Source of the DNA: Octopus sinensis
Lineage: Eukaryota
Direction of reading: 5' to 3'
Assembly (NCBI RefSeq): GCF_006345805.1
Contig: NC_043021.1
Location: 7,564,001 to 7,628,000, forward strand
DNA length: 64,000 nt
The notes under the pieces are model-generated. The model did not search any database. It was given only the letters and a program-made list of their open reading frames with translations, and was not told the origin of the DNA. Shown here in pieces: positions 4,234-38,089 of the stretch. The position numbers and the translations under genes are program-made. Position 1 is the stretch's first letter; each line of letters opens with the position of its first letter.

Positions 4234-4312
4234 CTTAGTGTACTGAGGGTTTCATCAAAATTGATGTCAGCTGGGCTGAGTGCAGCAACCATGGCAGTTT
4301 TTGAGTTTCCAC
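4234..4312 (-). CDS. unc-104: unc-104/KIF1A-like coding exon 9 ([27 protein letters not shown])
   Basis: 79 nt; TTCAG acceptor, GTAAG donor; in frame. Confidence 0.97.
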
Positions 4313-4360
4313 CTGAATTGTTAGGAAAAGAACAAAAAATAACAATAATAATATTTTCTT

Positions 4361-4396
<36 letters not shown>

Positions 4397-5088
4397 TCCT
4401 ATTATAGACATAAGGCCTGAAATTCATGGGGAAGGAGTTCATCAATAACATCAACTCCAATGTTCAGTTGGAACTTATTTCATCAGCCCCCAAAAGGATG
4501 TAAGGTAAAGCTGTTAATAAGGGGGAGGAGGAAGTGGGGTTCTTATACCAGAAGGGATTTCATATGCTGCCAATGAATAACACACACACTCTCACAGAGG
4601 CTTCTTTCAGTTTCCATCAACCAAATTCACTCACAAGACTTTGGTCAGCCTGGTGCTATTATAGAAAGCATTTGTCCAAGTGTCTATGCAGTAGGACAGA
4701 ACCTGAAAATATACGGTTGGAAAATGAACTTCTCAACCACACAGCCATGCCTACACCCAGAGTTTTTTTTTTTTTTAAACCTTTGCCTGTCTAAAGCATT
4801 TTCACATGTGTCCAAAATACCCATGTTTGTTTTCAGATTTTTAGTTAGATTTTTCTTTCATATGTTCTGAGTAATTTAAAGCTTTTCTTTCTGATGTCCC
4901 AAGTGACTTTGGTGGTTGAAAAAAAAATTAGAAATATGTATCATATACAACACATGGATGCCAGGAAAATATGTCTTATGTATTACATGTGAAATATAAG
5001 ACAGGCAAAGGGTCAAACCTATTAAATCCACAGTCCACAACAGCCTCCACCTTTCACATTCATTTATTTTTATTATCATGGCTAAGTT

Positions 5089-5513
5089 TCAGCCCAGGCA
5101 ACAGCAACAAACGGTGTGTCTGCCACATTCACGGCTCTCGGTACAATCATTCAGGCAGTTATTCATCGAACGTTCCAGCCAACGCCAATTCAACACCTCT
5201 GTCTGAAGGAAGTCTCCGAAGCAGTCCTCTTGAAGGCAGACTTCACAGACATGATACAGTTCCGTAGTGGTCATCATCTGGTAAGTCAGGCAGTGGTAAA
5301 AGATGGCAGGATACAGTGACACAGATCAATGCAGACTCTGTAATGAGGAGGTGGCATCTGCAGAACATCTTTGGTTGAGATGTCCTGCCCTGATGGTGGA
5401 ACGCTATATCTGCCAACTAGGGGCTACAATGGATGAGATGATTAGTCTCCCTTCCGCGGCTCTAGCACTTCTGAGAGTTATCCTCAGGTGCTTGAGGTGG
5501 CCAACAACAACAA
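5089..5513 (+). mobile_element. 5'-truncated non-LTR retrotransposon 3' end (I-group-like, C-terminal CCHC zinc knuckle)
   Basis: Frameshifted peptides ...QFRSGHH... and CRLCNEEVASAEHLWLRCPAL (C-x2-C-x8-H-x4-C), followed by a (CAA)n tail. Confidence 0.7.
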
Positions 5514-5926
5514 AGTCCACTCAGCACTCTTTTTGGACCAACATTACTGCCTTGAGATCATAGATACATTGTCAATGTGTGACGACATTTTCTTTTTACA
5601 TCACCATGAAGCAAGGTAATATTTCCCCATAGTTGAACATTCTGACCCAGAAGATTGAAAACAAAAGACTGTTTGTATGAAGGTGACACTCACTTCACAA
5701 CATGAAGTGGGTTCCACAAGACTAATTTAGACGCTTCCATTTCAGGGTGGCGCATGCAGTAACCAGAAAGTTGCAGCTGCCTTTGCCTGATCTTCTCACT
5801 AACTTCCACATTTATACTGTCTTATTGGAATAGATTTTCATGGTTCTCACCACACAAACCCAACAAGTGAAAGCAATGATTTCCTGATGGTGTTATCCAA
5901 GCAAGATCTCATTCTAAGTACTGTCA

Positions 5927-6082
<156 letters not shown>

Positions 6083-6730
6083 CTATAAGAAAATGAAATA
6101 ACAGGAACACATCATTACATGTTAAAACAATCACAGTGTAATTAATTATCCCTTTCCCCATGAATTTCAGGCCTTATGCCTATAAATGAATATTTTAATT
6201 ATTAGTGACAGAAGTAGTATTAAAACCAAAAGGGAATCTTTATATCCAACGTAACATGGATGTTCTGTTAGAACACTCAATACTGCATTACTAACTTTGA
6301 GAGACCCTCTCAAAGAGGTGTTTGGTGCATATATATTATATATATATGATAGAATGAGAAATACAAAGTCATTGATACAGTATTATATATTTGAGAAAAT
6401 GAATAGAAATGGCTTTTCTGACAACTTTTCCACTTAAGTAATTAGATGTTTATGATTTTACAAAATGTAACCAAACAGGTCTGGGCTATTTGTGTCCATC
6501 TTCAGTGGTGAATATCTGACCACTAGATCTCTAGCAGTCGGGTGTTCACCAAATAGCCCAAAACTGTTCGCTCACCTTTTGTAAAATTAAAAACATCTAA
6601 TTATTAAAGTGGAAAAATTACCATTTCTATTCATTTTTTCAAATATATAATAATACTGTACCAAGGACTTTCTATTTTTTATTCTACTATATATACATAC
6701 ATACATACATACATATATATATATATATAG

Positions 6731-7017
6731 TGGAGGCACAATGGCTCGGTGGTTAGGGCAGTGGACTCGCGGTCGTAGGATCACGGTTTCAATTCCCAGA
6801 CCAGGCGTTGTGAGTGTTTATTGAGCGAAAACACCTAAAAAGCTCCATGAGGCTCCGGCAGGGGGTGGTGATCCCTGCTGTACTCTTTCACCACACTTTC
6901 TTCTGTTGGCCTGCTCGCTTAGCCAGCGGGGTGGCATAATTCGAAGGCTAAAACAATGCGAACGCATTGTGACCAGCGATGTGTAACAACATCTGATGGT
7001 CTGGTCGGTCACGTGAT

Positions 7018-7025
<8 letters not shown>
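6731..7025 (+). mobile_element. tRNA-derived SINE family C, tail variant 1
   Basis: A-box-like TGGCTCGGTGG and B-box-like GGTTTCAATTCC; 5' ~170 bp shared with the 24405 copy; sits between (TA)n tracts. Confidence 0.8.
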
Positions 7026-7064
<39 letters not shown>

Positions 7065-10000
7065 TATATAAAATTGTATTTATATTCATCTTAGTCCATC
7101 TGACTCATACTGTGCTGTGTATAAAGTAAATATGTTGTTTAAACAATAATAAGCGTCTTCTTCACAAAGCACAAATATGCAAATTACTTTATTTGATGAC
7201 ACAAAAAATACAGATATATTACATATACCGCAATTTCAATAGCACATATTCAGGAGAATAAGTTTTTAGTGCATTTAAGCATGTACTACAAGCTCAAATT
7301 TTCATATAGACTCAGGGCAATTTTTTGAGACGTTTGTTGGGGAGGGTAGGTCCTCAATATGGCAAACTATCCACCATGGTGATAACCTATGACTGTTTTA
7401 TATAACAACTTACTGTTCTATGGTATTGATTAAGAAAAGGAAACTAGGTATATCTTCTCTGAGGAATAGCGAGCAAATTGTGAAACAGCCAATCAGGAGA
7501 TTTCTCACCTCTTTTTACCACACACCCAAAGCATAGAAGAAATGTGTTTAAATTGTGAATATTTCTCTCACAGCTAGGTTTTCTAATATTAAAAACATCA
7601 AGTCAACAACTGTATTTATAAGGGGAATCATCTTGGCAGATTGAATCTCATTCCATCAACAGAAATAACTCAATATCCATTATGTTTCAATACCGTTGCT
7701 GTTTAGAATGACTGTAAATAGCTGTAAATAGACATTCTTTTATTCTTTTACTCATTTCAGCCATGCAGCTGTGGTCATGCTGGAGCACCACCAAATTAAG
7801 ATATTTCAGAATTAAATCTCTTTCACAAAAACAGACACCAACCACTGCCTGTGGTAAACACCAAACAATGATATATTAATATATTAGCTGTTGGTATTTT
7901 ACTTCTGTTGAAGATACAGCAGTAAGTCTATCGCAAGGGAGCTACAGACTATTGGCATTCTGCACTCATACCTAGAGCTCTTCTGCTTCACTATCATCAC
8001 ATTTTTTACTTCCATTTCTCCATGCTTGCATGGGTCAGAAAGAATTTGTTGAAGCAAATTATTTTATGGCTGGATGCTCTTCCTGTCACCAACCCTTACT
8101 TGTTTCCAAGTAAGGTCATATTTCTCCATGGCTGGATATTCTTACACAGAAGATCGAAAACAAAAGACACAGTTTATATGATGGTGACACACACACTATC
8201 AGGTTTCTATCAAGACAAGAAGACACAAACACACACACACACACATATACAACAGGCTTCATTCATTAAGCAAACCTCTTAACTACAAGGCCATATCTAT
8301 GCTTACATAATTTTGATACAGTCATTTCACCAGATTAATTTTACACTGGTGCACAACAGGAAGATGGTTTTCAGTGATGATCCAATATCAATTACGAAAC
8401 ATTTTATTTTTTCCCCAATTTAATTCGTAAAGTAACCAAGGAATTGACAAACTGACTTAAAACGACAATAAAATTGATGAAGCTTTCTGTATATGTCTGT
8501 CTCTGAACAAGACAAATATACATATTCTATATTATTCTTTGTATGACTGGGTACACATTGACGATACAAATTGCATAGGATTTAATTTGCAATTAAATTT
8601 AAATATTGCAGTAAATATAAATTTTTAAAACATTCAGAAAAAAAAAGAGAATTCTTACAATAAAATTCCATGTGAAAAGGGTTTTGTCTTTTGGAAATTT
8701 TTTTTTCCTCATGATGAAAGCTATTTACCAAAATGTATTTATATAAGTCATATAACGACGTATGTATTTATGTAAGTAATATAATGACATATATTTTACT
8801 TCTTAAATAAATATACACTACATAAATAGATTCTCATTTTATTATCATTTCAATACAAAACATGGCCTTCTTATAAATGAAAGGAATCATTATCAATAAC
8901 AATAATAAAAAAAAAAATCAATATTATCTTAGAAAGACAGACAGACAGATAGATAGATAGATAGATAGATAGATAGGAAGAATGTAAGGCAAATAACATA
9001 TTTAAAAATGTAGAAAGTAAATTATTTAATTGCGAAGAAAGAAATGGCTAGTGAACAACAATAAATTATAGTTTCAGATGTATTGAATTATGCCTGACAT
9101 TACTGTAATAGTCAGACAAACTAGGATTTCAGATAGAATAACAATAACAGCAGCAATAAAACTATCAGCAACAGAGGTAAATGAACATCAAGTTTAGAGA
9201 TAGAATAACAGACATTGAACTGAGGCAAGAGAAACAGGAAGCTGACAACATTAAGAGAGAAAAACAAAAACAGAACAACTTTCAAATAGAAATCTTCACT
9301 GAAAGAAAGACAAACCCTTATTTATTTATTTTATTATTATTATTTTTTTTTGTTCAGTTTCAAAACTTAGTGAAAAATTGTTTTTAATAATAGAATTTAA
9401 TGGTATTTAAAGTTATAAATTATGGCTTCAAATTTTGGCACAAGGTCTGGAATTTCGCAGGGAGAGGGTTAGACAATTTTATTGACCCCAGTGCACAACC
9501 TGTTTCTTAATCTCATTTGTATCAATTTCTCTTCACTTAATAGATGGATGCCCTTCAGAAAGGACCACACACCAGAAACCTCTGACTTTCTGTTTCATTT
9601 TAGACCTGGGGACTTGTTATTGGGCAAGGAATTATCTTAACATTTTGTAGGAATGAAAATGTGTAAGATTAAAGTATAGAATTTAAAAGCACATGGAATT
9701 TCACTGAACTCATAAGCAACACTAGTTATAACCAGAAAACATGTAGCAGATCGTTAGAGAATAATCACAAAGGGTCTTCTTTATCCTTTTATGCTGAAGG
9801 CAAAGTCAACCTTGGAAGAATTTGAACTCCGGATGTAAAGACAGATGAAATACTTAAGTATTTTTCCCAGTGTGCTAATGATTCTGCCAGCCCGCCACCT
9901 TGGTAAAGCTTTTAATAACATTATGTAAATATTGAGTAAAATCTCCCCTTGGATCTAAAAAGTCAAAGGTTGTCCATGGCTCCACTTACTGAGAAGAGAA

Positions 10001-10339
10001 CGAATATTAAAAATTCCTTGTTTCTCCTTCCCCTTTTGATACCAATGCACCTAAGATTGCCCCTGGTTTTATGATACAAACTTCCAACTTAAACATGAAC
10101 TAAATTAAAATCTTCCATAGAAATTTCATGTTTGGTTATATTCCAAAAACCTGTTTAATAATGACCGAGATATTTTACTTAAATTCTTCATTATTTTCAA
10201 AGTTAATTAGAACAAAAACAATGAATTTCAATAGAAATATATTTGTCATATAAATTAGTTTACTCATTACTCTTTTACTTGTTTCAGTCATTTGACTGTG
10301 GCCATGCTGGAGCACCGCCTTTAGTCAAGCAAATGAATG

Positions 10340-10389
<50 letters not shown>

Positions 10390-12968
10390 GAAAGAGGAGA
10401 GAGAGAGAGAGAGAGTTGCCTCCTCCTTGTCTATGTGTATTAGTCTACCAAAGAAATATAATATTCTATATAAGAATATATTTCTAGCCCTGCTAAACGA
10501 TAAATAATATTGGCATTGTAATCCCTTGAGAAAATATTGAAATCTTACCATGATAGGCACATGGCTAAAGTGGTTAGGGTGTTACATTCATGATTGTCAG
10601 ATCATAGTTTCAATTCCCAGACAAGGCACCGTGCTATATTCTTCAGCGTAACACTTTATTTCACATTACTCCAGTCCACTCAGCTGTAAATGGGTCCCAG
10701 CAATATCTGGTAAGTTAACTCTGCGACAGACCACCATCCCATTCAGGGGAGAGTGTTGTAATCTGAGTCACTTATAAGCCATTGAAACCAAACCAGATTA
10801 AGCTCTGGCCTTATGAGTTCTTGGGCTTAAAACAGATGTGAGCCTAATGAGCAAAGGAACACAAATATTCTACAGACTCTGGTCTACGCTGATTACACCT
10901 AATTACTTCTTGTTCTTTATGATTACCATTTGTGAGAGATAGAATCATTAGGGAACAGAACACATTGCCTACCCATTTTGCCCTTTTTTATCTACAGTCA
11001 ACAAATCAAATGCTAGCCAAGCACAAAGGTAGACAAACTGAAGTACCTCTTTTTCTCAAAACAAGGTCTTGTAATAAGGTTATGAAACCCTTATTATTAT
11101 CATTATTACTCCTCTCAGTGTAGACCTGTAAGTCAGACAGAAGGAATTGGAAAGGGCACTTGCTCTAAGTGTTCAGGGAAACTTCAAAGAGTGGGGTTCC
11201 TCGATTATCCCTAGACGGCCTCCTGTATCAAGAGGGTTACATCTCTATCATCCTCCCTCACCACCTTTTTTTAAACCTTTGTATGCTATGCATATGCCCC
11301 TTCTTTTTCAGTGTATACCATGTATACTTACCTTTTTTTATCATTTCATTATATATAAACCCCCACACTTTATGTCCACCTTTGTGTTGTCCCCCTCATC
11401 CTTTGCTCTTGTGGCAAATAAATGAAGTCATCATCGTCGTCATCATCATCATCATCATCAAGGTGGCAAGCTGGCAGAGTCATTAGCATGCTGGTGCAAA
11501 ATGCTTAGCAACATTTCATCTGCCTTTATATTCTGAGTTCAAATTCTGCCAGGGTCAACTTTGCCTTTCATCCTTTCAGGGTCAACAAAATAAGTATCAG
11601 TTGAGCACTGGGGTCAATGTAATCAACTTTCCCACTCCCATGAATATGCTGGCCTTGCGCTAAAATTTGAAACCATTATTGCTCTTGCTGACCAAGTGCA
11701 CAACCTGTTTCTTAATCTCATTTGTATCAATTTCTCTTCACTTAATAGATGGATGCCCTTCAGAAAGGACCACACACCAGAAACCTCTGACTTTCTGTTT
11801 CCTTTTAGACCTGGGGACTTGTTATTGGGCAAGGAATTATCTTAATTGTTATCCTTGTCATTAACATTTTGTAGGAATGAAAATGTGTAAGATTAAAGTA
11901 TAGAATTTAAAAGCACATGGAATTTCACTGAACTCACAAGCAGCACTAGTTATAACCAGAAAACATGTAGTAGATCTTCAGAGAATAATCACAAAGGGTC
12001 TTCTTAATCCTTTTACGCTGAAGTCAACTTTAACTTTTCTTCACTCTTGGACCCATTATAAGAATTACTAGTAAGATGTAGGATTAAATCAGCTGAAAAT
12101 AGCCAACTCCCCACTGCTAATCCCTCTCTGCAATATAAACCTTATGTTTATTCGTTATCATTTAATGTTTGTCTTCTATGTTGATAGGAGTTGGATGGTT
12201 TGAGAGTATTCAAAGAGCTTGAAGAGCGTGTTGAACCCAATGTCTGTTTTGGTATGGTTTTCTACCGATGGATATCCTCCTTAATGCCAACACTTTACAG
12301 AGTATACCAGGTACTTTTTATCATGACACAAGCACTAATGAGGTCACCAAGTACAAAGGAAAATCCCCATTGACTTAGTGGGGTTTTAGCAATGAGGGAG
12401 CTGGCTTTATACCAGGTGTGAAGAGACAGAGTATGATAGAGGGACCAGACTTAGGTACCATACAACAGATGAGATACAGGGCTATCCTCATTATATAAGG
12501 GCAGGTGGAAGTAGCTGGAAAGAAGACGATGATGGTAATGAGGTGACTAATGGAAATCAATATTACGTACATATTTCAATCTAAATCAACAACAACAACA
12601 ATAGACAATGTCAAGAATGTGCATAAATGAGTAAATATTAACAACATGTACTGCAGGCTTGACAGTGAGGAGGAAAGAGAAGTGAAGAGAGAATATAATG
12701 CGTACACAGCCTACATTGAGGATTTTAATCCTTGTGTCTTTTTTAATCATCAACAAACTAGATTAAGTGCTAAAAAAGTGATATGACACCATCAGCTTTC
12801 TTTAAAGATTTTATTATAAAAGAAAAAAAAAAGAGTACTGAAACTGTTTTAAAATAATAGGGATGAACAGATAAACACACTCATTGCACTTCAACATAAA
12901 GAAATATACATGCACCAGTGCACCAGTGAGGTACATTGAAAACCACACAACTGTTCTCAAGGTCTTAA

Positions 12969-13187
12969 CCCTTTAGTGTTCAGATTATTCAATCAAACAT
13001 AATGCTTTTTGATTCCCATTGATTTGAATCAATCATGCATTATCTCATATCTTCAAGATCTTGATGGTGTAATTACTTAATGTAGAATAACATTGTAGGG
13101 TAGGTGTGAGAGCCTGGATCTGGTCAGTTTGAACATAAAACAGATTAAATATTTTGGCCGGATATGGCCGGTTTAAATACTAAAGGG
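12969..13187. mobile_element. piggyBac-type MITE family 1 (TTAA-flanked, CCCTTTAG...CTAAAGGG)
   Basis: TTAA at 12965-68 and 13188-91 with terminal inverted repeats. Copies at ~352-992, 42469-42692, 60451-60673. Confidence 0.8.
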
Positions 13188-13859
13188 TTAATGTTTTATT
13201 TTTAAATTTGCCTCCCAAGAATTGTAGGCATACCTGCTGGCCATTTCTAGGCATGCCTCAAGTCTATCAGTGGGCATGCACGTGGGCTTCGTGTATGCCT
13301 TATAGCAGTACATTGGTTGAAAATGCCCGGTCTACACAAATGATTAAACTGTAAAATAATTTGTCACAGACTTGGCCTTATTATAGGTCATACACCAGTA
13401 TTATTATATATATGATGTAAACATACTGTCAGATACATACACACAAATACACAGCATGCAGAAAATACAGAATGACAACCAATTTATTCTCATGAAAGTC
13501 AGTTTACAATGTGTACATTCATGCAAAGATAATCATGATTTCTCAGAGAAGATTTCCAACATTTGTCTATAAACAGTAAAGGTAACATTCCTGAAATGGT
13601 CTAGGGTTGTATCTTCTAATTCTTCTTATTAACATTAGTTTTTCTAATTCTTGTTTTTATCACTATCATCATCATTATTATTATTATTATTATTATTATT
13701 GTTTTCTAATTCCTCCTATTGGGGATTTTAGTTGTTAGAATTTTCATTGTTATTTTATTGTTTACTTGATTTTTGTGCTAAAGCCCACGTGTCCCTAGTT
13801 TTATATTGTCCCTATTTGTTTTTGTGTTGGGCCCTTGTTGCCAATAAAGAAACAATTAT

Positions 13860-14130
13860 TATTTTTATTATTATTATCTTCTTTCTTCAAATTTTCTTCC
13901 GTTTCTCGCTGAGTGTTTTCCGTACACCTGTAGCAGAGAAGCTCATTGTATGCATTCCCAGATTACACATGCAAATTCACAGGTAAAATACGTATTTAAA
14001 AAATTAATGAATAAATAAATTCATGAATGAATGTTGTTTTCACAGCAATAGTGCTCTTCTCAGTACATAAGCCATTCCAGTTAACACAATTTTTTGCACT
14101 TCCTGTAGGGATGGTAAATTTCTGATGATC
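13860..14130 (-). mobile_element. R4/Dong-like non-LTR retrotransposon 3' end
   Basis: Peptide LPSLQEVQKIVLTGMAYVLRRALLL* resembles the RLE-clade C-terminus (QKxxLLGTAxILR); 3'UTR runs into (TAA)n. Confidence 0.7.
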
Positions 14131-15205
14131 CTTGCAATGCCAAGGGGCACACTAATCTGATTTCCTTTATATTCCTCTTGATACCTTATTATTATTATTA
14201 TTATTAGCAGTAGTAGTAGTATTATCCTTATCAATGTCATCATTATTATTTATATCAGTATTATCAAAATTATTATTATTACTACAACTATTATTATTAT
14301 CATTATTATTATTATTATAAAGCTATTACATGCTAATCAAGTTAGCAGAGATGTCTTAGGAGTCTTGCAGAATACAAGATGGTACTGTTTGAGTAGCACC
14401 TATCTCAGTTCTAATACCAATCTCAATTGCCTCACCCTTTCACCTATTAGGTTGCAGTTTAAACAATGTACCAAACACAGTGTTGGATCACTGAAGATGG
14501 AAAGTCTCCAGGTTTGGTCATGCTACATTCTTGGCAACAATATCTATTAATCCCTCTGGTTGGAAATTAGGTTTTATAGAATAAATAGAATTTCTGCTTA
14601 ATTCTATTCTATTTTTTTTCTGCTTTAATACATAAAAGACATTGTGAACAAAAGATGCTATCCATGTCCATCAAACAATTTCAATTTGTTTTTTCTTTTC
14701 TTTCAACTCATCATTTCTTTCATTAACAAAGAACTATGTAAAAACATCTTCAGCAGAATATTAAGTAAAATTTTAAGAATTGGTAAAAACATTTCTATGA
14801 TTCTGAACATTAGAACATTTTAGAATTCAAACTAATAAAAATATAACATGTTCTTTTTGTCTCGTCCTAAAATATTTTTAAAACTTTAAATAAAATATTC
14901 TATTTATCTTCTGGTCCTGAATAATTCTCAAACCATTCTTTAGACTGATAAGAAAAGCAATAGATGTGCACTATAATGTTTCATTATTAACATGAAGGGC
15001 CTTTGTTTTAGAGGAACTGGGAGGATTCTGTTGGAGTATTTACGGTGCATGTGTTGCACTAAGGCTTGGTTACCTATATCGGAAAACTGCACTACATCAG
15101 ATGACAAAGGCACATACACACAAACATTTAGGAGCAATTTCATAGCTAGCCACGAACATAAAGGAGGACAATATCACATACACAGACCCCTTTTAAAAGC
15201 CTTAC

Positions 15206-15226
15206 CTTTATCGCTTCAGAAGCACT
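15206..15226 (-). CDS. unc-104: Candidate 21-nt cassette microexon (SASEAIK) in loop 12, before the K-loop
   Basis: Long poly-T tract + TGTGCAG | AGTGCTTCTGAAGCGATAAAG | GTAAGG; phase 0/0, no stop, inside the phase-0 intron between exons 7 and 8. Confidence 0.7.
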
Positions 15227-15514
15227 CTGCACAAAAGGTAAAAATAAAAAAAAAAAATGAATAATGAATGAAAAATATGTGTCTACATTTTTAGTTCCAG
15301 TTTCTTCCCAACTTAAAATTAAGGAAAAAAATTTTTAATAATGCTTATTAGTCAGATTAAGACAGAGACTCCACTGATAACAATGTTGTTTCATATTGAA
15401 AAAATATTGGTAATGTAGTTGAAGAGAATATCTCGCTCAAATAGAAAGACCAAAAATTTGCTTACAAACTTCAAAGGAATTTACTTTGCTAAATCTTTTG
15501 TATGCATGAGGCAA

Positions 15515-15553
<39 letters not shown>

Positions 15554-16064
15554 TTGCTGAAGCAAAACAACTTTTGAATGTAAAAAAATGGTGGGGATAG
15601 AAATCTCAAAAAAAAAAAAAGAGTAATTTGAAAATGAAGTAAAACCCCTAATCTAAGACTTTTCTGGTCAATATAACAACAGGCAATATTCAAACAGCCA
15701 TGGTCTTTAATTATAAATATAGCAATCATTTATCTGCATCTTTCAAGTATGATATGGCAGTAACCTTCAGTTATTATATTACAACAGTAACTCAGCTATC
15801 AGAGCCCACCAGATATCAAAGAGTTGTCACTCCTTCAGAAACTAAACTTCAGATCTATAGATCAATAACTGACATTTGATAAATTCAGCAAGACAAGATA
15901 TCAGCAAGGCATCATACTACACCAGCTATAGGCAACAGATCATAAGTGCATATTGTTAAGATGCCTTAACAGTAAATACTATGTTGCAGTTATGACTGTC
16001 TGTCAGTCAATTTTAATATTTTATGACATACAACAAGTCATTTTGATGATATTCAGCTGCTCTT

Positions 16065-16119
<55 letters not shown>

Positions 16120-16975
16120 GTCACTAACTGTGACTGACTGATGGTGCACAGTAGTACCTACATTGCTAGAAATAAGAGCTAAAAGCCCTTAGACCCACAG
16201 GAAGCACATGTCTATGCACTGAGAGGGGAGATAACCACCCCACTGCAAGTGAAAAGGCTTTTAGCTCTTATTTCTAGTACTGTGGGTGCTACCTTGCACC
16301 ACCAGTCACAATTAGTGACACCTGAATTTTCCTTTTTGGTTTTGTATTGCATATAGCCACCTTCATTTTATATATATATATATATCGCTTTTTATATCTG
16401 GTTTGCAAGATTCTTGGTGTGAATTCATGAGTTGAAACAAACTTTGTGCCTTGGGAGAGTCATTACACAATTAACAATGACACACACACTGGTTCAATAT
16501 CACTTCTTTATTGTTAGTCAATTGGTTAAATATCTAACCAACTAACTAATTGATAGTTTCTTTAATGTGCTGGTTAAACAATCAATCATTTGTTTGTTAG
16601 TCTAAGTTCTTTCACTGCTGTTTTCAACCTTTCCAGTGACTTCCCTTCTCCAAAATACTAATCACCAGAAATATGAAGCTAGTTTCTGAATCAGACTGCC
16701 AAAATGAAACCAGTTACACTTCAGTGATATTATAGCCTAACAATGATATATTGGGTAAGTAGTCTTATTCATATGTAACTATCTTTTAGGTCTATTTCTA
16801 AAAATATTTATATTCTTATCAATGTGAGTCCCACAAACTACAGATAGGCTCTGAGAAATGTAAGTCCCACGAAAAGGTGACAAATCCAATAACAGAATCT
16901 ATGGCACAAGTTCTAAATGAATTTTAAGTATTTCCTTAGCTTAATCTTCAGACCTACAAATTATCTTGTTTAGAC

Positions 16976-17204
16976 CAGTGCTCTGCAACCAATATGCCGC
17001 GAGACAATGCTAGGTGTGCAGCAGTGTAACCTGAGTATAATTTTTTTTCCCTACGCATTTTTCCCCCTATAATTTTTCCCTATACTTTTTTCCACCTATA
17101 ACTTTTTTTCTCTATACCTTTAGTTATATTTTTAGTTCAGGTGTGCCACCAAATTTTGGAAAGAATATAAGTGTGCCGTAAGTGAAATAGGTTGCAAAGA
17201 ATTG
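16976..17204. mobile_element. hAT (Charlie/Buster-like) MITE with 8-bp TSD
   Basis: TSD GTTTAGAC at 16968-16975 and 17205-17212; TIRs CAGTGCTCTGCAACC / GGTTGCAAAGAATTG. Similar CAG..CTG elements near 51140-51365 and 52460-52633. Confidence 0.8.
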
Positions 17205-17592
17205 GTTTAGACAATAGTTTGGCAATTTCATAGAGATGTTAATGAGAGACTCTTAAGTAATTCAAACTATCCAAGATGCATAACCGAGATGTTTTGTTGA
17301 TGCAATGTACAGACTCATGATTCATGAACAGGACTTTACACTGTATATATGTATATTTATTTGATTACTAGCTGTGAATTGTTTTATTCATTTGCAAATC
17401 ATCAACATGTATACATTTTATTCATCTGTTACATGAAACAAAAACAAAATTGGATGAGGGTGTTTAACAAACACACATGTATATTAATTATAATGAAAGA
17501 TTCACCAGAGATGTTACAATCATTGTCGATATATTTTATGATAACCCATCCACCAAAAAATGAAAATAAAAGTTGCAATTAATTAAACTTAC

Positions 17593-17736
17593 CACGTCTG
17601 CCAGAGCAGAAATTACTTTTCCAAGGGTCGTCAAAGATTTGTTAATGTTAGCGCCTTCTTTCAGGCGGGTTCCTTTGGCACCGGTTGAATCAGCTCGTTC
17701 ACTGCCGGCCAAGTCTACAAGACTGATTTTGCTCAC
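17593..17736 (-). CDS. unc-104: unc-104/KIF1A-like coding exon 7, switch II ([48 protein letters not shown])
   Basis: 144 nt; TGTAG acceptor, GTAAG donor; DLAGSE motif. Confidence 0.97.
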
Positions 17737-18659
17737 CTACAGGAAGAAAATTTAAATATTTGTAAATTTAAGTAAAAAAAAAAAAAAAATAGAAACAATT
17801 AAAAGCACAAGAAAAATGTAGCATTAACTACATCACACGTAACAATCCCGCAAACTGGAAAGTGTAACAATCAGCTTAACAACCAGTCTAATTGTATGAT
17901 AGAAAGAATCCGATTCTAGAAAAGACTGATGCAATTTCATGTTGGAGTTTCCATGAGTTTAGTAAAAGATGAAAGAAAGAGATGAAAAGCAACTTACAAT
18001 AATGAAGGACTGGATGTATTTGGTGCCTGATTCCTTCGAAAAGAGGAATAAACTCACAAGGATCTTTAAAGTACCTTGCTATATGTCTACATCTGCACTG
18101 GAATACTTTACAATTGAGACAAGTTGTCCATGCCACAACTCTCCATTATTAGTATTAAGGCAGTAAGATAACAGAATAATTAATAAGCCAGACAAAATGC
18201 TTAACAGCATTTCAGTTCTCTTTGTTCTGAGTTCAAATTCCACTAAAGTTGACTTCGCCTTTCATCTGTTTGCGGCTCAGTAAATTAACTACCAGTTGAG
18301 TACTTGGGGGGGGGGGGGGAATCAATGTAATCGACTTACTCCCTCCCCTCAAATTGCTGGCCTTGTGCCAAAATTTGAAACTATTGATAAGCTGGCAGAC
18401 TCAGTAGCATGCTAGACAAAATGCTTGGGAAAATATTTCCTCCATTTTTGATTTGAGTTCAAATTCCACCAAGGTAGACTTAGCCTTACATCTGGAACTC
18501 ACTTAATTAATTACCAGTTGAGTACTGGGGTCAACATAATTGACTTACTTCCTCCCCCAAATTCCAAGCTTTGTGCTTGTAGTAGAAAATATTATTGTTG
18601 TTGTTGTTGTTGCTGTATGGTTGGGATGCAAGCTTCTTACCACACAGCCATGCCTGCAC

Positions 18660-18704
<45 letters not shown>

Positions 18705-19829
18705 TACAAACATATATACAATGGACCACACAGCTTCTGCTTATCAAATTTACTAACAAGGTATTGGTCAGCCTGGGGCAATAGTAGAAGTCACTTGCCC
18801 AAGATGTTATGCAGTGGGACTGAACCCTAAACAACTTGGTTGCAAAGGGGGCTTCTTAACGACACAGCCATTCTTTGTATTTCTTCCATGCTCATCATAG
18901 GGATTGGCAAAGTATTTAATATTGATCCCTGGAGAACTATGTGGCTATCCAGTGGGATAGATATCGCAACTAAAAGGAATGGCCATCGAATTGCACCTAG
19001 AAAGTTACCCTCCAAGGTACAAGACTGGGCAAGATTGTTTATGGAAGACTAGCAATCACCCATGCAAACCAGCATGCCCCCTCCACTCCACTGATGTTAT
19101 CCAAGGGAAAGGCAAAGATCAATACAGCTTGGCACCAGTGACATTGCAACTCATTCTTACAGATGAGTGAAATGGAGCAACAGGAAATAAAGTGTCTTGC
19201 TCAAGAACACAACACACAGCCCAGTCCAGGAATTGAACTCACAACCTCACAATTGTAAGCTCAACACTCTAACCACTGAGCCATGCACCTTTGCCACTAT
19301 ATATATATATATATTAATATAACATGACTGAATTTTTATTGTTCATCAATTTATTAAATCTTATTAAAGCAATAATGACATGAAAGAACAAAGAAATTAT
19401 TGTTTTTAAACCAATAAATTCTTTCATTAATTATACTTTTTAATTTTATTTGAGGAATTTACGCGATTGGAATTGATGATTCCATGAAAGGATCAATGAC
19501 CCTTTCATGACCTTTTACTCAAACATAACCGAATTCCACTAAGAAATTCCAGAAGATCTAACTCTAGTAAACTCCCTCTCTTCTGGTACTCAAAGAACTG
19601 GAACTCTCAAGGAATTGGCACCCAAGAGAAAATCAAAGGAAATGTATTGTTAATTTGAGTGAAGAGAATTTATGCTAATTTGTGTTAATTAACTTCAATT
19701 TTGGTACAAGGCCAGCAATTTTTAGGGCAGGTGTAAGTTGATTTTATTGACTCCAGTACTCAACTGGTACTTATTTTATCAACCCTGAAAGGATGAAAGG
19801 CAAAGTGGCCCTTGGTGGAATTTTATTAG

Positions 19830-20490
19830 TGTTGGAGCTACTTTATTCATGTGGAGCAATTCCAGTACAGAGCATAGAACATTATCAAACATCTTCTGGT
19901 AATCAATCTAAGTCATGCTGAGGCTTGTTTTCCTCTTTTTACAGTCTTCTAAAATGGTTCAATTTCTCAGAAGCTGCTCTTTACAACCATACATCCCTTT
20001 CCAGCATCCTTTTTGGTAATCTGGTACATTGTTTCCATGGTGTTACAGGCTAGTTGTAAATAACTGATGCAAGGGTTTTATAAGTTGTTGATAGGCATGT
20101 TATTGGCCCATAATTTCGTGGGTGTATGGTGTGTTTGTTTTTGGACATCAGAATGGTTTGTCCTTCCAGCATCCAGTTTGGTGTTGAATATGAGTATGGG
20201 TACTGGTGAGGTGTTTCAACCAAAAGTTGGGGACCCTGTCTAACGCTGGAGATTTCCAGTTACTGGTACTCCTCAGCGTGTCTGCAATCTCTAGATTTAC
20301 AATGGTTGGCCATATCTGTGGTGCTATTTTGCTCTTCCTTTCCTTTTCCCTATTCATTCATTGAGCATTTTTGTTGTCGTGTTCTTGTTTGCTCCATATT
20401 CCTTCCCATACTGTTGGCATGTCACCTATTGATATGATTTTTTTCTTTAAGGTTTTGTAAAAATCAATAATAAATCGCTGAACGAGGTAT
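19830..20490 (-). mobile_element. R4/Dong-like RT N-terminal fragment (degenerate)
   Basis: Motifs NWKSPALDRVPNFWLKHL, NYGPITCLSTTYKTL, QKGCWKGMYGCKEQLL and IDYQKMFDNV, with stops and frameshifts. Confidence 0.8.
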
Positions 20491-21369
20491 ATCATTATTA
20501 TTAAGGTAGCAAGCTGGCAGAATTGTTAGCACACTGAGTGAAATGTTTAGTGGCATTTCATCCGTCTTTACGTTCTGAGTTCAAATTCCGCTAAGGTCGA
20601 CTTTGCCCTTCATCCTTTCAGGGTCAATAAAATAAGTACTAGTCCCCACAAATTTCAGGCGTTACTACTACTACTATTACTACTACTAGTAGTAGTAGTA
20701 GTAGTGGCAGCAGCAGTAGTAGTAGCAGTAGTTGTAGTACAACAAGCTGGGAGAATCATTAGTATGATGGATAAAATGCTTAGCAGCATTTCTTGAAGCT
20801 TTATGTTCCGAGTTCAAATTCTGCTGAGGTCGATTTTGTCTTTCATCCTTTCGGGGTTAATAAAATAAGTACCAGTTGCGCACTAGGAGTCAATGTAACT
20901 GACTATCACCTGCCCACAGAAATTTCAGGCCCTTGTGCCTATAGTAAGTACAAATCGTCAAAATCTGCCAAGGTCGACGTTGTCTTTCATCCTTTCCGGG
21001 GAGGGTCAACGTCCTCGAACACAACATCACACCAGATGGAGCTTTCATTGTTATCACCACCACCAACATCACCACCACGGATGCAGACAATATCTTCCTG
21101 CCGTTATCCACTACCGCATGCATGCATCCCGTTACCACCTGAAACTAGAGCAATAGCAACTACCACCAACATCACCACCACCAATACTAACACTCACTAC
21201 CACCACTACCACCATCACCATGAAGAGAGCAGGTGTAAAAAAGCCTGCCCTCTTGCACAGCAGTATGAGTCAGCTGACTTAGCTGGTAGGTTGGCTGCTG
21301 TATATAGATGTAAAACCATGAGTCATAATCACATTGAACACAAGATCAATCAGTCAATTCTAATAGAAT

Positions 21370-22572
21370 TTTTATAGACGGTGGTTATGGTGGTTGTGGT
21401 TTAGGACGACGACGGTAGCGCAGGCGACGACGATGACGACGACGACGACGATGATGGTGTTGACGGGTCTGGATTGGGCTGCTGCAGTAGCTATGATGGT
21501 GGTGTGGGTTTCAATGACGATGGCTGTGGTGGTGGTGGTGGTGGTGGTGCAGCTGCTGCTGCTGATGGTTGTAGTATGGCAATGGTGGTGGTGAGTGTCG
21601 TAGTGGTTTTGGTGGTGGTGGTGGTGGTGGTGGGGTTGGGGTGGATTGTGGTAGGAGAGTGTGATGGTGGTAGTGGTAATGGTTTTGGTGGTGGTGGTGG
21701 TGGTAGAGGTGGGCAGTGTTCGTAGTGGTAACGGCAGTGGTTGAATGGTGTTGATGGTTGTCACTGTGGTTTCCGTATTGGTTATAGTGGTGGTGGTGGT
21801 GCTGGGGTTGGGGTGGGGTGGGGTAGGAGAGTGTGATGGTGGTAGTGGTAATGGTTTTGGTGGTGGTGGTGGTGTGGTGGTGGTGGTGGTGGTGGTGGTG
21901 GTAGAGGTGGCAGTGTTCGTAGTGGTAACGGCAGTGGTTGAATGTGTTGATGGTTGTCACTGTGGTTCCGTATTGGTTATAGTGGTGGTGGTGGTGGGGT
22001 GGTGGTGGTGGTGGGGTTGGGGTGGGGTAGGAGAGTGTGATGGTAGTAGTGGTAATGGTTTTGGTGGTGGTGGTGGTGGTGGTGGTGGTGGTAGAGGTGG
22101 GCAGTGTTCGTAGTGGTAACGGCAGTGGTTGAAAGGTGTTGATGGTTGTCACTGTGGTTTCCGTATTTGTTATAATGGTGGTGGTTCTGGGGTTGGGGTG
22201 GGGTGGGGTAGGAGAGTGTGATGGTGGTAGTGGTAATGATTTTGATGGTGGTGGTGGTGGTGGTGGTGGTCACAGTGGTTTTGATGATTGTGGTGATGAT
22301 GGTACAGTTGTTACTAGTGGTGGTGGTAATGGTACTGCTGCTGCTACTGCTTGTTGCTGTACTAATGGTAACAGCAGACATAGTAGCTGTAGTAGCGGCT
22401 GGCTGGCTGGTTGGTTGGTAGTGATGGTGGTTGTGATGATGATGTGGTAGAATGAGGGAGGTGGTGAAGATAATGATAATGATGACAGTGATTGTGGAGA
22501 GACCTGTGTTGGTAGTAGTGGCAGCAGTGGTGGTAATAGTGGTGGTGATGGTGGTGGTGGTGGTGATGGTGG
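21370..22572. repeat. (GGT)n-derived G-rich array with higher-order ~170-200-bp units
   Basis: Repeated GGGGTAGGAGAGTGTGATGGT...TAGAGGTGGGCAGTGTTCGTAGTGGTAACGGCAGTGGTTGAA units separated by variable (GGT)n. Confidence 0.9.
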
Positions 22573-23071
22573 CAAGTGAATTTTTCTGAAATGCAGTTGA
22601 ACGACAGAAGAAGCAGTTTCATTTCCCCACTACCCCCTTCATCTCCCACTCCAACAGATATAAAAAAAATTAAGTACCCTAGTACCAGAGATACACTGGT
22701 GTCCAAAGGGGCCCCTTTTATTGTCAGTACACTCCCTTCTCTCGTAGCAACTTCAGTGGCTATTATTATGGTCATAGTGCTTGCAATGAGTCTTGTAGTG
22801 ATTTTTCTGATGGCAACAGTCACTGTGTAGTGGTAGTGATGGTTTGGGAGACACAGTGGTTCTTATTATTACACTAGTGCTGATGAAATATCAAAGCTTG
22901 GTCTTACTTCCCGGTGTGAATGAACTCACAACTTGTACTCGGCTTTCATAAATTGTCTTTCAGTACCTGTGTAGTTGCAAGCAGACATACACATGTTCAT
23001 GGTTCTCCTTGTTTTTCGGTGCCTATGTAGTTGCAAGCAGACAGACATATTCATGGCACCCCTACCATTAA

Positions 23072-23293
23072 CCCTTTCGTTACTGTATTTATTTTGAGAT
23101 GCTCTGCGTTTCATTCAATTAATTTTAAATATAACAAAGACTTTAGTAAAAGATCTTAGTTATAATTAAGCTAGTGTTGGGAACATAAATTGTGACTAAG
23201 GTTTGGTGGAAGATTTTAATTCAAAACTTATGAAAACAAGACATTTTTACTACAGAGCCAGAGGTGGTTTCAGCCAGGTTGGTATCGAAAGGG
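23072..23293. mobile_element. piggyBac-type MITE family 2 (TTAA-flanked), followed by a tandem partial copy to 23465
   Basis: TTAA|CCCTTTCGTTAC...GTATCGAAAGGG|TTAA. Copies at 31279-31499 and ~35775-35985 (reversed). Confidence 0.8.
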
Positions 23294-24404
23294 TTAAATA
23301 TAACAAGGAATTTAGTAAAATAACTTAGTTATCATTAAGCTAGTGTTGGGAACATAGATTGTGACTAAGGTTTGGTGGAAGATTTTAATTCAATACTTAT
23401 GAAAACAAGACATTTTTACTACAGAGCCAGTGGCAATTTTGGCTGTGTTGGTATCAAAAGGTTAATACAGTGGAGCTTCAATGGTGTGACAACTGGAGAG
23501 AGAGAGGGATGTACCAGTAATTGGCTGGTACTTATTTTTAGTTGAGTACAGTGAAGCAATGTGAGATGATGTGCCTTGCTCAAAGAAATGGCACAATTAC
23601 CCAGCTCAAGAACTGAACTCATAATCTCATGATTACGAACCCAACACCCCTAACCACTGAGATAACAATGAATATGATGATATCCAATATCACAGATGAG
23701 TTTTGTACTGATATTACTCTTTTACTTGTTTCAGTCATGTGACTGTGGCCATGCTGGAGCACCGCATTTAGTCAAACAAATCGATCCCAGGACTTACTCT
23801 TTGTAAGCCTAGTACTTATTCTATTGGTCTCTTTTTGCCGAACTGCTAAGTTACGGGGACATAAACACACAGGCATCGGTTGTCAAGCGATGTTGGGGAG
23901 CCAAACACAGAAACACAAACATATATACACACACATACATATATATATATGTATATATATATATATATGTATATATATATGTATATATATATGTATATAT
24001 ATATATATATATACGATGGGCTTCTTTCAGTTTCCATCTATTAAATCCATTCACAAGGCTTTGATCGGCCCGAGGCTGTAGTAGAAGACACTTGCCCGGA
24101 CTGAACTTGGAACTATGTGGTTCGTAAGCAAGCTACTTACCACACAGCCACTCCTGCGCCTATATCATATTCTTTATTAACTATGCTTTAGTATTTTCAG
24201 TCATTGCACCATGGCTATGCTGGAGCATCACATTCCAGGCAAACAAATTCAACCCTTAGTACTTTTAAAAAATATTTTTTAGTGATAGAGGCAATATTAA
24301 TACCAAGAGGTAATATTTATCCCCACTTAAATGTGGATGTTCTGTTATAACAAACTACGTTATGGTATATACCATGAGAGAAACTCTCATATTGGCATTT
24401 GGTG

Positions 24405-24788
24405 TGGAGGCGAAATGGCCCAGTGGTTAGGGCAGCGGACTCGCAGTCATAGGATCGCGGTTTCGATTCCCAGACCGGGCGTTGTGTGTGTTTATTGAGC
24501 GAAAACACCTAAAGCTCCACGAGGCTCCGGCAGGGGATGGTGGTGATCCCTGCTGTACTCTTTCACCACAACTTTCTCTCACTCTTACTTCCTGTTTCTG
24601 TTGTACCTGTATTTCAAAGGGCCGGCCTTGTCACTCTCTGTGTCACGCTGAATATCCCCGAGAACTACGTTAAGGGTACACGTGTCTGTGGAGTGCTCAG
24701 CCACTTACACGTTAATTTCACGAGCAGGCTGTTCCGTTGATTCGGATCAACCGGAACCCTCGTCGTCGTAACCGACGGAGTGCTTCCC
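24405..24788 (+). mobile_element. tRNA-derived SINE family C, tail variant 2, with 14-bp TSD
   Basis: Perfect TSD ATTGGCATTTGGTG at 24391-24404 and 24789-24802; tRNA-like head. Confidence 0.9.
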
Positions 24789-24866
24789 ATTGGCATTTGG
24801 TGCTAAATGCAGTCTTGTTTATAGCACTTGCAAAGAGACACGCCCATGCTATCTCCAGTGCTGAGA

Positions 24867-24913
24867 CCACCAGATCATGTGATTTTGACCTTTCTTGGTC
24901 TTGTCAATGATGG
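24867..24913 (-). ncRNA. Decayed type I hammerhead ribozyme motif
   Basis: CCAUCA-UUGACAA-GACC aagaaa GGUC-AAAA-UC acau GA-UC-UGGUGG: all three stems pair; the core differs from CUGACGA/GAAA by three transitions. Confidence 0.6.
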
Positions 24914-25611
24914 ACACTCAACCACTACAGGTAAGTAACAGTGACTCATCTCCCTGCCAATGGTATGTAGAAAAACAGTTCTAGAACAGGCACTGTTTAA
25001 AAATATATATTAGTGACAGTAGCTGTATTAATTACCCAGAGGTAATATTTATTCTGACTAAGACAGCGAGCTGGCAGAAACAAGCACACATATACACACG
25101 CATGCACAGGCACACAGCTTTAACAGGTTTCTACACAAAATTACTGCCAAGTGAATTTCATACAATACAAAAGGTATTGGTTAATCTGTTAATCTGGTGT
25201 TCCAAAAGGAATCTTGCCTCAAGCGGAAAGCAAGATGCTCTGCAGTGGTACCGAACCTAGAGCCAGATGGTTACCAAGAAAAATTCGTAACTACACAGCT
25301 ATGCCTGCACCCATAAAATTGATGATGATGATGATGGCAAGATTGGAGAAACAGGATGTCTCCGAGATTAAATATGGCGATGACGATGACAACGACAAGC
25401 ATGAAGAAAACAACAATAAGGACCAGGATATCTCGGAGATAATCAAGCAGTCTGACTGGTTACTCTATATTTACTTTCCTCACTCCATCTTTTCCATTTT
25501 CATTAGGTGTAATCAATACTAAAATTATGACGTTTCAAACGGAAACAGATCGAAACACACCCTTTCTTACTTTCTCTCTCTCTCTCTCTCTATACATATA
25601 CATGTATATAC

Positions 25612-25660
<49 letters not shown>

Positions 25661-26487
25661 TGTATGTATGTATGTATATGTATACTGTTTACTCTTTTAC
25701 GTGTTTCAGTCATTTGGCTGTGGCCATGCTGGAGCACCGCCTTTTAGTCGAGCAAATCGACCCCAGGACTTATTCTTTGTAAGCCTAGTACTTATTCTAT
25801 CGGTCTCTTTTGCCGAACCGCTAAGTTACGGGGACGTAAACACACCACCATCGGTTGTCAAGCGATGTTGGGAGGGACAATCACAGACACACAAACATAT
25901 ACACACACACACACACATATATATATATACACATATATACAATGGGCTTCTTTCAGTTATCATCTACCAAATCCACTCACAAGGCTTTGGTCGGCCCAGG
26001 GCTATAAGTAGAAGACACTTGCCCAAGGTGCTACGCAGTAGGACTGAACCCGGAACCATGTGGTTCATAAGTAAGCTACTTACCACACAGCCACTCCTAC
26101 GCCTATATATATATACACATACAAACACACCCTTAAGGACATACATTAATGTATGGAAACAACCGTCCTGTTGCCAGGTATTACTTCGCTAATAAAACTA
26201 GTGTGTGTATGTAATATGCATGTAAAATAAACAACTCAGTCCATGGAATAGGAGTTCATTTATGTGATCAGCACTGATGATTCACACTGTTGCCATTCCG
26301 AGTTTCTTGCATTTGTTGAGTTCCTTCATACAGCAACAGGATGGATGCAATTGTTGAAATTTGGAACACAGTAAATAAACACCCTGCATTTTCATTGGTC
26401 CATTCCAGTAACCGGAAATTATGTGCAAAAGTAAGAAACTTGGAGTAGCAACAGAGTGAGTCAGCTTTATATATATATATATATATA

Positions 26488-26685
26488 CTTTATTTAAAGC
26501 AGCAGAAAATTCAACAAAATTCAACAAAACCTGTTACTCTGAGTTTCCCGTTGCTGATGAACGGGAAACTCAGAGTAACAGGTTTTGTTGAATTTTCTGC
26601 TGCTTTAAATAAAGCATATTACTCTACCACTGGTATTTGAGTACTCTTTTTTCCACCTTGTTTCACATTTATGTGTTTACTCCGG

Positions 26686-26690
<5 letters not shown>
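26488..26690 (+). mobile_element. Fold-back element in (TA)n with hammerhead-like centre (Penelope-like relic)
   Basis: 55-bp inverted arms (left arm has an extra 10-bp duplication); centre CTGATGA-ACGG-GAAAC-TCAGA-GTA; unpaired ~75-bp tail. Confidence 0.7.

Positions 26691-26742
<52 letters not shown>

Positions 26743-27023: not shown

Positions 27024-27057
<34 letters not shown>

Positions 27058-37757: not shown

Positions 37758-37807
<50 letters not shown>

Positions 37808-38044: not shown

Positions 38045-38089
<45 letters not shown>

What the first reader, a model, noticed from the sequence alone, without database searches (positions are those of the whole stretch)
15206..15226. Candidate 21-nt microexon inserting SASEAIK directly in front of the kinesin-3 K-loop
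Seen: inside the 11.5-kb intron between ...SALADV and [10 protein letters not shown], the minus strand reads TCATTCATTATTCA-(T-rich)-ACCTTTTGTGCAG | AGT GCT TCT GAA GCG ATA AAG | GTAAGG. It has a strong donor, about 50 nt free of AG, phase 0/0 and no stop, in a locally repeat-poor stretch. Known: vertebrate KIF1A/KIF1B carry an 18-nt exon at this junction (DSGPNK / DNCTSK, alternatively used in KIF1B), and loop 12 with its K-loop tunes microtubule affinity. A UGC next to the acceptor and upstream YCAY clusters are typical of SRRM4/eMIC- and Nova-regulated neural exons. Inference: an ancient or convergent neural microexon that tunes this motor and would be missed by standard annotation.
Basis: partly seen in the sequence, partly recalled or inferred. 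Interest (0 to 1): 0.78.

Follow-up and report, generated by a model that had tools for sequence, protein, structure and literature searches.

The report
Ancient K-loop microexon in octopus kinesin-3
A real 21-base mini-exon adds seven uncharged-in-sum residues just before the microtubule-gripping loop of the octopus axonal motor UNC-104/KIF1; it is already in public gene models, and inserts at the same spot in many animal phyla suggest it is likely a nerve-cell switch inherited from early bilaterian animals.

Summary
The 21-nt exon (15226-15206, minus strand) is there as described and is the best of 334 frame-keeping candidates in its intron. It is real but not hidden: RefSeq octopus UNC-104 models carry SASEAIK at this junction (15 of 15 listed Octopus proteins have an insert), and squid transcript contigs occur with and without it. 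Inserts of 1-10 residues sit at the same junction in bivalves, gastropods, a nemertean, hemichordates, sea stars, arthropods and vertebrates, often as plus/minus isoforms. The zebrafish counterpart is a published neural, eMIC-dependent Kif1b microexon. Published work reads the fly/mouse match as convergence. Against that, bivalve, gastropod and hemichordate inserts share S-[AS]-[ML]-D (exact p 0.0004-0.01, post hoc); vertebrate inserts and the octopus peptide itself do not. 21 of 25 inserts have net charge zero, so the exon likely works as a spacer. Neural inclusion, skipping and eMIC control in octopus are inferred; no reads were examined. The scan noted the insect 3-nt counterpart before in another genome (e1-9811338). 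Verdict: new member of a known kind.

The parts
15206..15226 (-). 21-nt microexon, phase 0/0, encodes SASEAIK (residues 289-295 of P0001), net charge 0, at the start of loop 12 before the K-loop
15200..15205 (-). 5' splice site AAG|GTAAGG, strong
15227..15282 (-). 3' splice site region: 54-nt AG-free zone, T-rich tract, acceptor TGTGCAG (the only TGC is at -5..-3)
15257..15271 (-). three TCAT words at -45, -41, -34; YCAY (Nova-type) or, as likely, branch-point candidates of the yUnAy type (consensus recalled); function untested
   Evidence: inference
17593..17736 (-). upstream constitutive exon [16 protein letters not shown]...[11 protein letters not shown] (switch II to helix 4)
6001..6082 (-). 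downstream constitutive exon [27 protein letters not shown], carrying the K-loop lysines
6083..17592 (-). 11,510-nt host intron (split into 2,366 and 9,123 nt when the microexon is used)
1164..60925 (-). 5' half of the unc-104/KIF1 kinesin-3 gene: 14 exon stretches matching residues 1-504 of P0001; the gene runs on past the low end of the window

Best explanation
This is a real 21-nt microexon of the octopus kinesin-3 gene unc-104/KIF1 that inserts seven residues of zero net charge directly before the K-loop lysines, and it is likely a neuron-enriched cassette, likely switched on by the eMIC domain of Srrm234, that would lengthen loop 12 and so retune the motor's grip on tubulin tails. Shown: the exon, its frame, its use in public gene models, plus/minus forms in squid transcript contigs and in 11 named mollusc species, and the identity of the junction with the neural zebrafish Kif1b microexon. 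Inferred: skipping and neural bias in octopus (about 0.8), eMIC dependence (about 0.65), action by length or geometry rather than charge (about 0.55), descent from one bilaterian exon (about 0.6).
For: P0001 (NCBI: unc-104 isoform X6, Octopus sinensis) reads [17 protein letters not shown] and maps exon by exon on the window. 15 of 15 listed Octopus proteins (of a 30-member cluster) carry an insert: 7 O. sinensis and 1 O. vulgaris SASEAIK, 7 O. bimaculoides SAEGIK. Of 10 unnamed Logan squid-like proteins, 7 have a 6-residue insert, 2 lack it, 1 does not cover the site; Doryteuthis kinesin-3 ABY75514 has SADAMGKK. Both forms within one species: 11 named molluscs, Lineus, Ptychodera, Patiria, two Asterias, Limulus, Ixodes scapularis, Parasteatoda, Amphibalanus, Orussus, Cephus, three fishes. 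Zebrafish kif1b DreEX0041536 is 18 nt, PSI 95 in neural tissue against 0-10 in 8 other tissues (44 in endocrine pancreas, 31 in blood/immune), and its human partner rises by 96 PSI on eMIC over-expression (PMC12626424 supplements); its RT-PCR primers translate to KVISAL and VLTWLL, the flanks of this junction. The own genome has a PF15230 (SRRM_C) match over the cut-off. 21 of 25 inserts have net charge 0, 4 have +1, none is negative. KIF1A run length scales with loop-12 charge at fixed length (PMC9871336) and the loop bridges the tubulin tails (PMC11219953), so a neutral insert would have to act through reach or shape.
Against: No reads were examined, so tissue pattern in octopus is unknown. 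No skipping isoform was seen among the 15 listed Octopus proteins (15 more were not listed); the exon could be near-constitutive here. The eMIC cis code is poorly met: no UGC apart from the acceptor, no UCUC tract, nearest CTAAT at -125. Only positions 13-55 of 67 of PF15230 were matched and the rest was not found in C11337:1-11400. The 25 inserts are not independent (12 are molluscan), so the charge count is suggestive only. Zebrafish deletion of the Kif1b exon gave only a mild social phenotype. No fold was obtained.
Confidence: 0.7

Rival explanations
1. Convergent hotspot: loop 12 tolerates insertions and sits on an old intron, so unrelated microexons arose there several times (vertebrates, insects, molluscs); the octopus exon is molluscan only.
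For: PMC8797185 favours convergence for the fly unc-104/mouse match because the exon was not found in all insects studied. bioRxiv 10.64898/2026.09.05.749416 reports that same-position recurrence is common and accepts only APBB and MADD microexons as bilaterian-ancestral. Vertebrate (p 0.81), echinoderm (p 0.08) and nemertean (p 0.40) inserts do not resemble the mollusc profile; cephalopod inserts alone do not resemble hemichordate ones (p 0.12). Lengths run from 1 to 10 residues. No insert in the models seen for Ostrea edulis (10 of 10), Patella, Argonauta, Priapulus, Tubulanus, Owenia and several ticks and spiders.
Against: Hemichordate inserts match the mollusc profile at positions 1-4 (2 of 5040 permutations; 1 of 504 without the first residue), for bivalves and gastropods separately; 0, 0 and 1 of 5891 peptides read after an AG in the window score as high. 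Dreissena and Ptychodera share SAMDK letter for letter. A 1-residue insert is present or absent in horseshoe crab, tick, spider and sawflies, so the fly exon is not a dipteran novelty. Absence from gene models is weak evidence for tiny exons.
Confidence: 0.3
2. The exon is real but constitutive or near-constitutive in Octopus: a fixed part of loop 12, as the DSGPNK stretch appears to be in KIF1A, with no regulatory role.
For: 15 of 15 listed Octopus proteins include it; strong donor and acceptor and weak eMIC-type cues. KIF1A chains in solved structures carry DSGPNK at this place, and none of the 3 Kif1a rows in Table S2 of PMC8797185 is 18 nt.
Against: Squid contigs and Sepia models show both forms; the single Argonauta model lacks it. 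unc-104 is mainly neural (established knowledge), so inclusion would dominate gene models even for a neural cassette.
Confidence: 0.15
3. Chance splice-like sequence or a gene-prediction artefact.
For: The octopus proteins are predicted models, and no reads were seen here.
Against: Top of 334 candidates by a wide margin; a related insert in three Octopus species, in squid contigs of 5.6-6.6 kb that hold the whole reading frame and so are likely RNA-derived, and across molluscs.
Confidence: 0.02

Closest known systems
Vertebrate KIF1B 18-nt K-loop microexon (zebrafish DreEX0041536, human HsaEX0034475; mouse MmuEX0025502 by inference)
   Same: Same junction in loop 12, in frame, similar length, net charge 0, ends in K; plus/minus isoforms in fish proteins.
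   Different: No sequence likeness (DNCTSK against SASEAIK; p 0.81 against the mollusc profile); neural inclusion and eMIC control are measured there and only inferred here.
Drosophila unc-104 3-nt eMIC-dependent microexon DmeEX0010000 (PMC8797185)
   Same: Same gene; reported at the same position as a mouse Srrm3/4 exon. That this is the K-loop junction is my inference from its coordinates and from 1-residue inserts in insects and chelicerates; I could not see Fig. 9B or S11H.
   Different: One codon against seven; read by its authors as convergent.
Bilaterian-ancestral neural microexons of APBB1/2/3 and MADD (bioRxiv 10.64898/2026.09.05.749416)
   Same: Tiny in-frame exons at one position across protostomes and deuterostomes.
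   Different: Those are described as 6 and 9 nt; this one varies from 3 to 30 nt, and KIF1/unc-104 is not named in that main text (0 hits).
C. elegans unc-104 7-residue motor-domain microexon of AVM/PVM touch neurons (PMC12084633)
   Same: Same gene, same length, in the motor domain, neuron-type specific.
   Different: Its position in the domain is not given in the text I could read, so homology is untested.

Membership tests
KIF1/UNC-104 kinesin-3 | Motor, kinesin-associated, FHA, KIF1B, DUF3694 and PH domains in order | tested here: met
   on P0001; residues 1-504 map on the window
KIF1/UNC-104 kinesin-3 | Lysine run (K-loop) in loop 12; best solved relative is KIF1A | tested here: met
   (8utn, E 1.5e-195)
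eMIC/SRRM3/4-type neural microexon | 3-27 nt, frame-keeping, flanked by AG and GT | tested here: met
eMIC/SRRM3/4-type neural microexon | Strong 5' splice site (mammalian type) | tested here: met
   rough matrix; feature
eMIC/SRRM3/4-type neural microexon | Long AG-exclusion zone and pyrimidine tract | tested here: inconclusive
   54 nt, but 5 of 7 constitutive acceptors of the gene are as long or longer
eMIC/SRRM3/4-type neural microexon | UGC between branch point and AG (74-79% of targets; not strictly needed) | tested here: inconclusive
   single TGC overlaps the acceptor; rule
eMIC/SRRM3/4-type neural microexon | An eMIC-domain regulator in the genome | tested here: met
   PF15230 32.6 bits over cut-off 27, positions 13-55 of 67; that PF15230 covers the eMIC domain is recalled
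eMIC/SRRM3/4-type neural microexon | Neural-specific inclusion | not tested
   no read data obtained
eMIC/SRRM3/4-type neural microexon | Inclusion depends on eMIC | not testable with these tools
   needs a minigene or knock-down
Orthologue of the vertebrate KIF1B K-loop microexon | Same junction in the protein | tested here: met
Orthologue of the vertebrate KIF1B K-loop microexon | Sequence likeness of the inserts | tested here: not met
   293 of 360 permutations score as high
Orthologue of the vertebrate KIF1B K-loop microexon | Unbroken presence along the tree | tested here: inconclusive
   present in hemichordates, sea stars, molluscs, a nemertean, arthropods; not seen in 2 annelid models, Priapulus, Tubulanus; amphioxus, sea urchin, xenacoelomorphs and cnidarians not sampled
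Bilaterian-ancestral neural exon (criteria of bioRxiv 10.64898/2026.09.05.749416) | Tissue-specific in vertebrates, insects and both outgroup lineages | not tested
   vertebrate and fly from papers; octopus, centipede, amphioxus, sea urchin not seen
Bilaterian-ancestral neural exon (criteria of bioRxiv 10.64898/2026.09.05.749416) | Lengths within 6 nt (their rule for patchy cases) | tested here: not met
   1 to 10 residues; rule

The most novel reading that the evidence does not exclude
The K-loop microexon of KIF1/UNC-104 is a third neural microexon inherited from the last common bilaterian ancestor, wrongly filed as convergent because its length drifts freely (3 to 30 nt). An S-A-M-D-K-like start survives in molluscs and hemichordates. 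Selection has kept the position and a zero net charge, not the sequence: a splice-controlled spacer that sets how far the lysines of the main synaptic-vesicle motor reach towards tubulin tails in neurons.
Probability: 0.55. Interest if true: 0.6.

Novelty: new member of a known kind. Interest (0 to 1): 0.4.

Why it matters
The exon itself is annotated and its vertebrate and fly counterparts are published, so finding it is not a discovery. What could matter is the history. Recent work counts only two bilaterian-ancestral neural microexons and treats same-position cases such as unc-104 as convergence; a shared start motif in molluscs and hemichordates would add a third and show that length-based rules undercount old microexons. 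The natural series of neutral inserts from 1 to 10 residues also makes an open biophysical question testable: whether K-loop length, apart from charge, tunes kinesin-3 motility.

Tried and rejected
No read-level evidence was obtained, which leaves tissue pattern and skipping in octopus open. A structure prediction of a squid motor with the insert (alignment A1) could not be run because the machine was busy; the idea that the insert extends helix 4 is untested. The second-best candidate in the intron (6596-6576, score 11.9, weak acceptor) appears in none of the 15 Octopus proteins and was dropped. The microexon with its flanks is single-copy in the own genome (1 match), so not a repeat. The UGC, AG-free, YCAY and repeat-poor cues were tested and found weak. 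The second half of the eMIC domain was not found in C11337:1-11400. Vertebrate and Capitella loops of the form EVVS.. were taken as likely read-through of the donor GTAAGT in gene models and left out of the insert table, as were mites (Varroa, Tropilaelaps, Dermatophagoides), Trichinella, Ostrinia and Cephus, where the insert's ends were unclear. Matsushita 2009 and Torres-Mendez 2019 are not held. PMC12626420 has no kif1a/kif1b in its main text. No earlier scan notes exist near this place.

Full report
Observation. The minus strand at 15226..15206 reads AGT GCT TCT GAA GCG ATA AAG (SASEAIK), after ...accttttgtgcag and before gtaagg. The flanking exons end at 17593 (...SALADV) and start at 6082 ([10 protein letters not shown]...), both in phase 0, around an 11,510-nt intron. 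I scored all 334 stop-free, frame-keeping AG..GT stretches of 3-51 nt in that intron with a rough splice-site score (donor frequencies recalled). This one ranks first at 19.0; the next scores 11.9. The stretch with its flanks matches once in the own genome.

Host gene. Fourteen exon stretches of the window match residues 1-504 of P0001 letter for letter apart from split codons. NCBI names P0001 kinesin-like protein unc-104 isoform X6 of Octopus sinensis. It has the KIF1 domain order, and its best solved relatives are KIF1A motor constructs; the insert aligns with the DSGPNK stretch before KIF1A's lysine run.

The exon is already annotated. P0001 reads [19 protein letters not shown]. Of a 30-member Octopus cluster, 15 were listed, and 15 of 15 have an insert: SASEAIK in 7 O. 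sinensis and 1 O. vulgaris proteins, SAEGIK in 7 O. bimaculoides proteins. No skipped form was among the 15; the other 15 were not shown (a second look-up listed the same ones).

It behaves as a cassette in relatives. Of 10 unnamed Logan proteins close to Sepia and Doryteuthis, 7 have a six-residue insert, 2 lack it, 1 does not reach the site. Those with full-length frames lie on contigs of 5.6-6.6 kb, so they are likely transcripts, since half the gene spans 60 kb here. Both forms occur within Sepia pharaonis, Mizuhopecten, Gigantopelta, Haliotis cracherodii, Dreissena, Saccostrea, Magallana gigas, Biomphalaria glabrata and three Mytilus species; in Lineus (12 with, 3 without), Ptychodera (11, 4), Patiria and two Asterias; as a single residue in Limulus, Ixodes scapularis, Parasteatoda, Orussus and Cephus; as four residues in a barnacle; and as DNCTSK in three fishes. 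Only the short form was seen in Argonauta (1 model), Ostrea edulis (10 of 10), Patella, several other molluscs with one model each, Priapulus, Tubulanus, Owenia and several ticks and spiders. For all species but octopus I saw proteins only, so a separate exon is inferred. The searches list the best 62 or 120 hits and one search was built to favour inserts, so these are not unbiased counts.

What is known. In PMC12626424 (passages; supplement rows) zebrafish kif1b DreEX0041536 is an 18-nt exon with PSI 95 in neural tissue, 44 in endocrine pancreas, 31 in blood/immune tissue and 0-10 in eight others; it falls by 31 on eMIC loss and its human partner rises by 96 on eMIC over-expression; deleting it gave a mild social phenotype. 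Its RT-PCR primers translate to KVISAL and VLTWLL, which places it at this junction. PMC8797185 (passages, section 13, Table S2 rows) lists a 3-nt eMIC-dependent exon in fly unc-104 and 18- and 42-nt ones in mouse Kif1b, names unc-104 as one of four same-position fly/mouse exons, and favours convergence. I could not see its figures; that the shared exon is the K-loop one is my inference. bioRxiv 10.64898/2026.09.05.749416 (passages and section 10; supplements closed) accepts only APBB and MADD microexons as bilaterian-ancestral, admits likely false negatives, and does not name kif1 or unc-104 in its main text. PMC12084633 (passages) reports a 7-residue unc-104 motor-domain microexon in two worm touch neurons, position not stated. 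Matsushita 2009 is not held; PMC12626424 cites it for motor activity and PMC10849588 (passage) for raised ATPase and microtubule affinity. I recall that longer K-loop inserts gave higher activity there with no change in speed; that is recalled, not read. Torres-Mendez 2019 is not held and may already list the octopus exon. Eight paper searches listed no paper whose title or abstract start points to a molluscan or pan-bilaterian K-loop microexon; I read only the papers named here.

One origin or many. I noticed that bivalve and gastropod inserts start like hemichordate ones (Dreissena SAMDKVS, oyster SAMDLK, Biomphalaria SSMDPK; Ptychodera SAMDKIGKGS, Glandiceps SSMDK.., Saccoglossus SSLDK..) and then tested it, so the test is post hoc. 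Against a profile of 11 mollusc inserts, positions 1-4, the three hemichordate inserts beat all but 2 of 5040 column permutations, and all but 1 of 504 when the first residue is left out. The result holds for bivalves (2 of 5040) and gastropods (10 of 5040) apart, and without the three best matches (6 of 5040), but not for cephalopods alone (627 of 5040). Of 5891 four-residue peptides read after an AG in the window, 0, 0 and 1 score as high as the three hemichordate inserts. Echinoderm (70 of 840), nemertean (336 of 840) and vertebrate (293 of 360) inserts do not match. So there is sequence evidence for an exon shared across the protostome-deuterostome split, the octopus peptide is a drifted member tied in through other molluscs, and the link to vertebrates and insects rests on position alone. 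Convergent selection on the first residues after helix 4 cannot be excluded. I put one origin at about 0.6.

Regulation. The donor is strong. The other cues are weak: 5 of 7 correctly placed constitutive acceptors have AG-free zones as long; the only upstream TGC is part of the acceptor; YCAY triplets occur at five places in the intron. The TCAT words at -45 to -34 fit a yUnAy branch point as well (consensus recalled). UGC is found in 74-79% of SRRM3/4 targets and is not strictly required (bioRxiv 10.1101/2024.09.17.613571, passages and section 10; PMC13174390, passages). The own genome has a PF15230 match over the cut-off, covering positions 13-55 of 67; the remainder was not found nearby. 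eMIC control is thus argued from homology, not from the local sequence.

Effect on the motor. Of 25 inserts tabulated, 21 have net charge 0 and 4 have +1; the loop stays at +3 with or without the insert in those 21. Many are related, so this is a hint. KIF1A run length scales with loop-12 charge at fixed length (PMC9871336, passages), and the loop projects from the head and bridges the tails of alpha- and beta-tubulin (PMC11219953, passages). A neutral insert placed before the lysines would then act by reach or shape. The rival is that it does little; the mild zebrafish phenotype fits that.

Verdict. It is a new member of a known kind, already in gene models. Interest 0.4, resting on the case that this exon is ancestral rather than convergent. 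An earlier scan note (e1-9811338) describes the insect 3-nt counterpart in another genome; I saw it after reaching my reading and it agrees.

Noticed in passing
window about 2720-2674, minus strand: Near-exact copy (about 47 of 49 nt) of the acceptor and first 25 nt of the GGNSKTAMV exon (near 4312), inside the intron 3112>2176 and followed by GTGTGT; likely a local duplication or pseudo-exon.
   Followed up: partly
L002 (G000:C11337:11167-11301, minus): Exon ending ...RRRPGSPSHLDKRRIT that matches PF15230 over the cut-off; likely the first half of the Srrm234 eMIC domain; second half not found in C11337:1-11400.
   Followed up: partly
window 9473-9842 and 11594-11842: Two near-identical repeat copies in the host intron (same translated stretch; repeated 14-mers); likely a mobile element.
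   Followed up: no
window 30598-30951, plus strand: Stretch translating to ...LRRLVTDLVNTHKVINH...SNTRGHAYKVRKQHSSHDFRKHFF..., which looks like the end of a LINE reverse-transcriptase frame (likeness recalled).
   Followed up: no
P0228/P0379 and P0093: Barnacle and abalone (Haliotis rubra) carry the same four-residue insert SAAP at this junction.
   Followed up: partly
P0444 (Dermatophagoides) and P0457 (Trichinella): Loops ELSSQDPAK.. and EMSSQSGSIA.. resemble the SSMDPK-type insert; no clear short isoform, so left out of the tests.
   Followed up: partly
window 6576-6596, minus strand: Second 21-nt frame-keeping candidate with a strong donor (AAG|GTGAGC) but weak acceptor; not in any Octopus protein seen.
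   Followed up: partly
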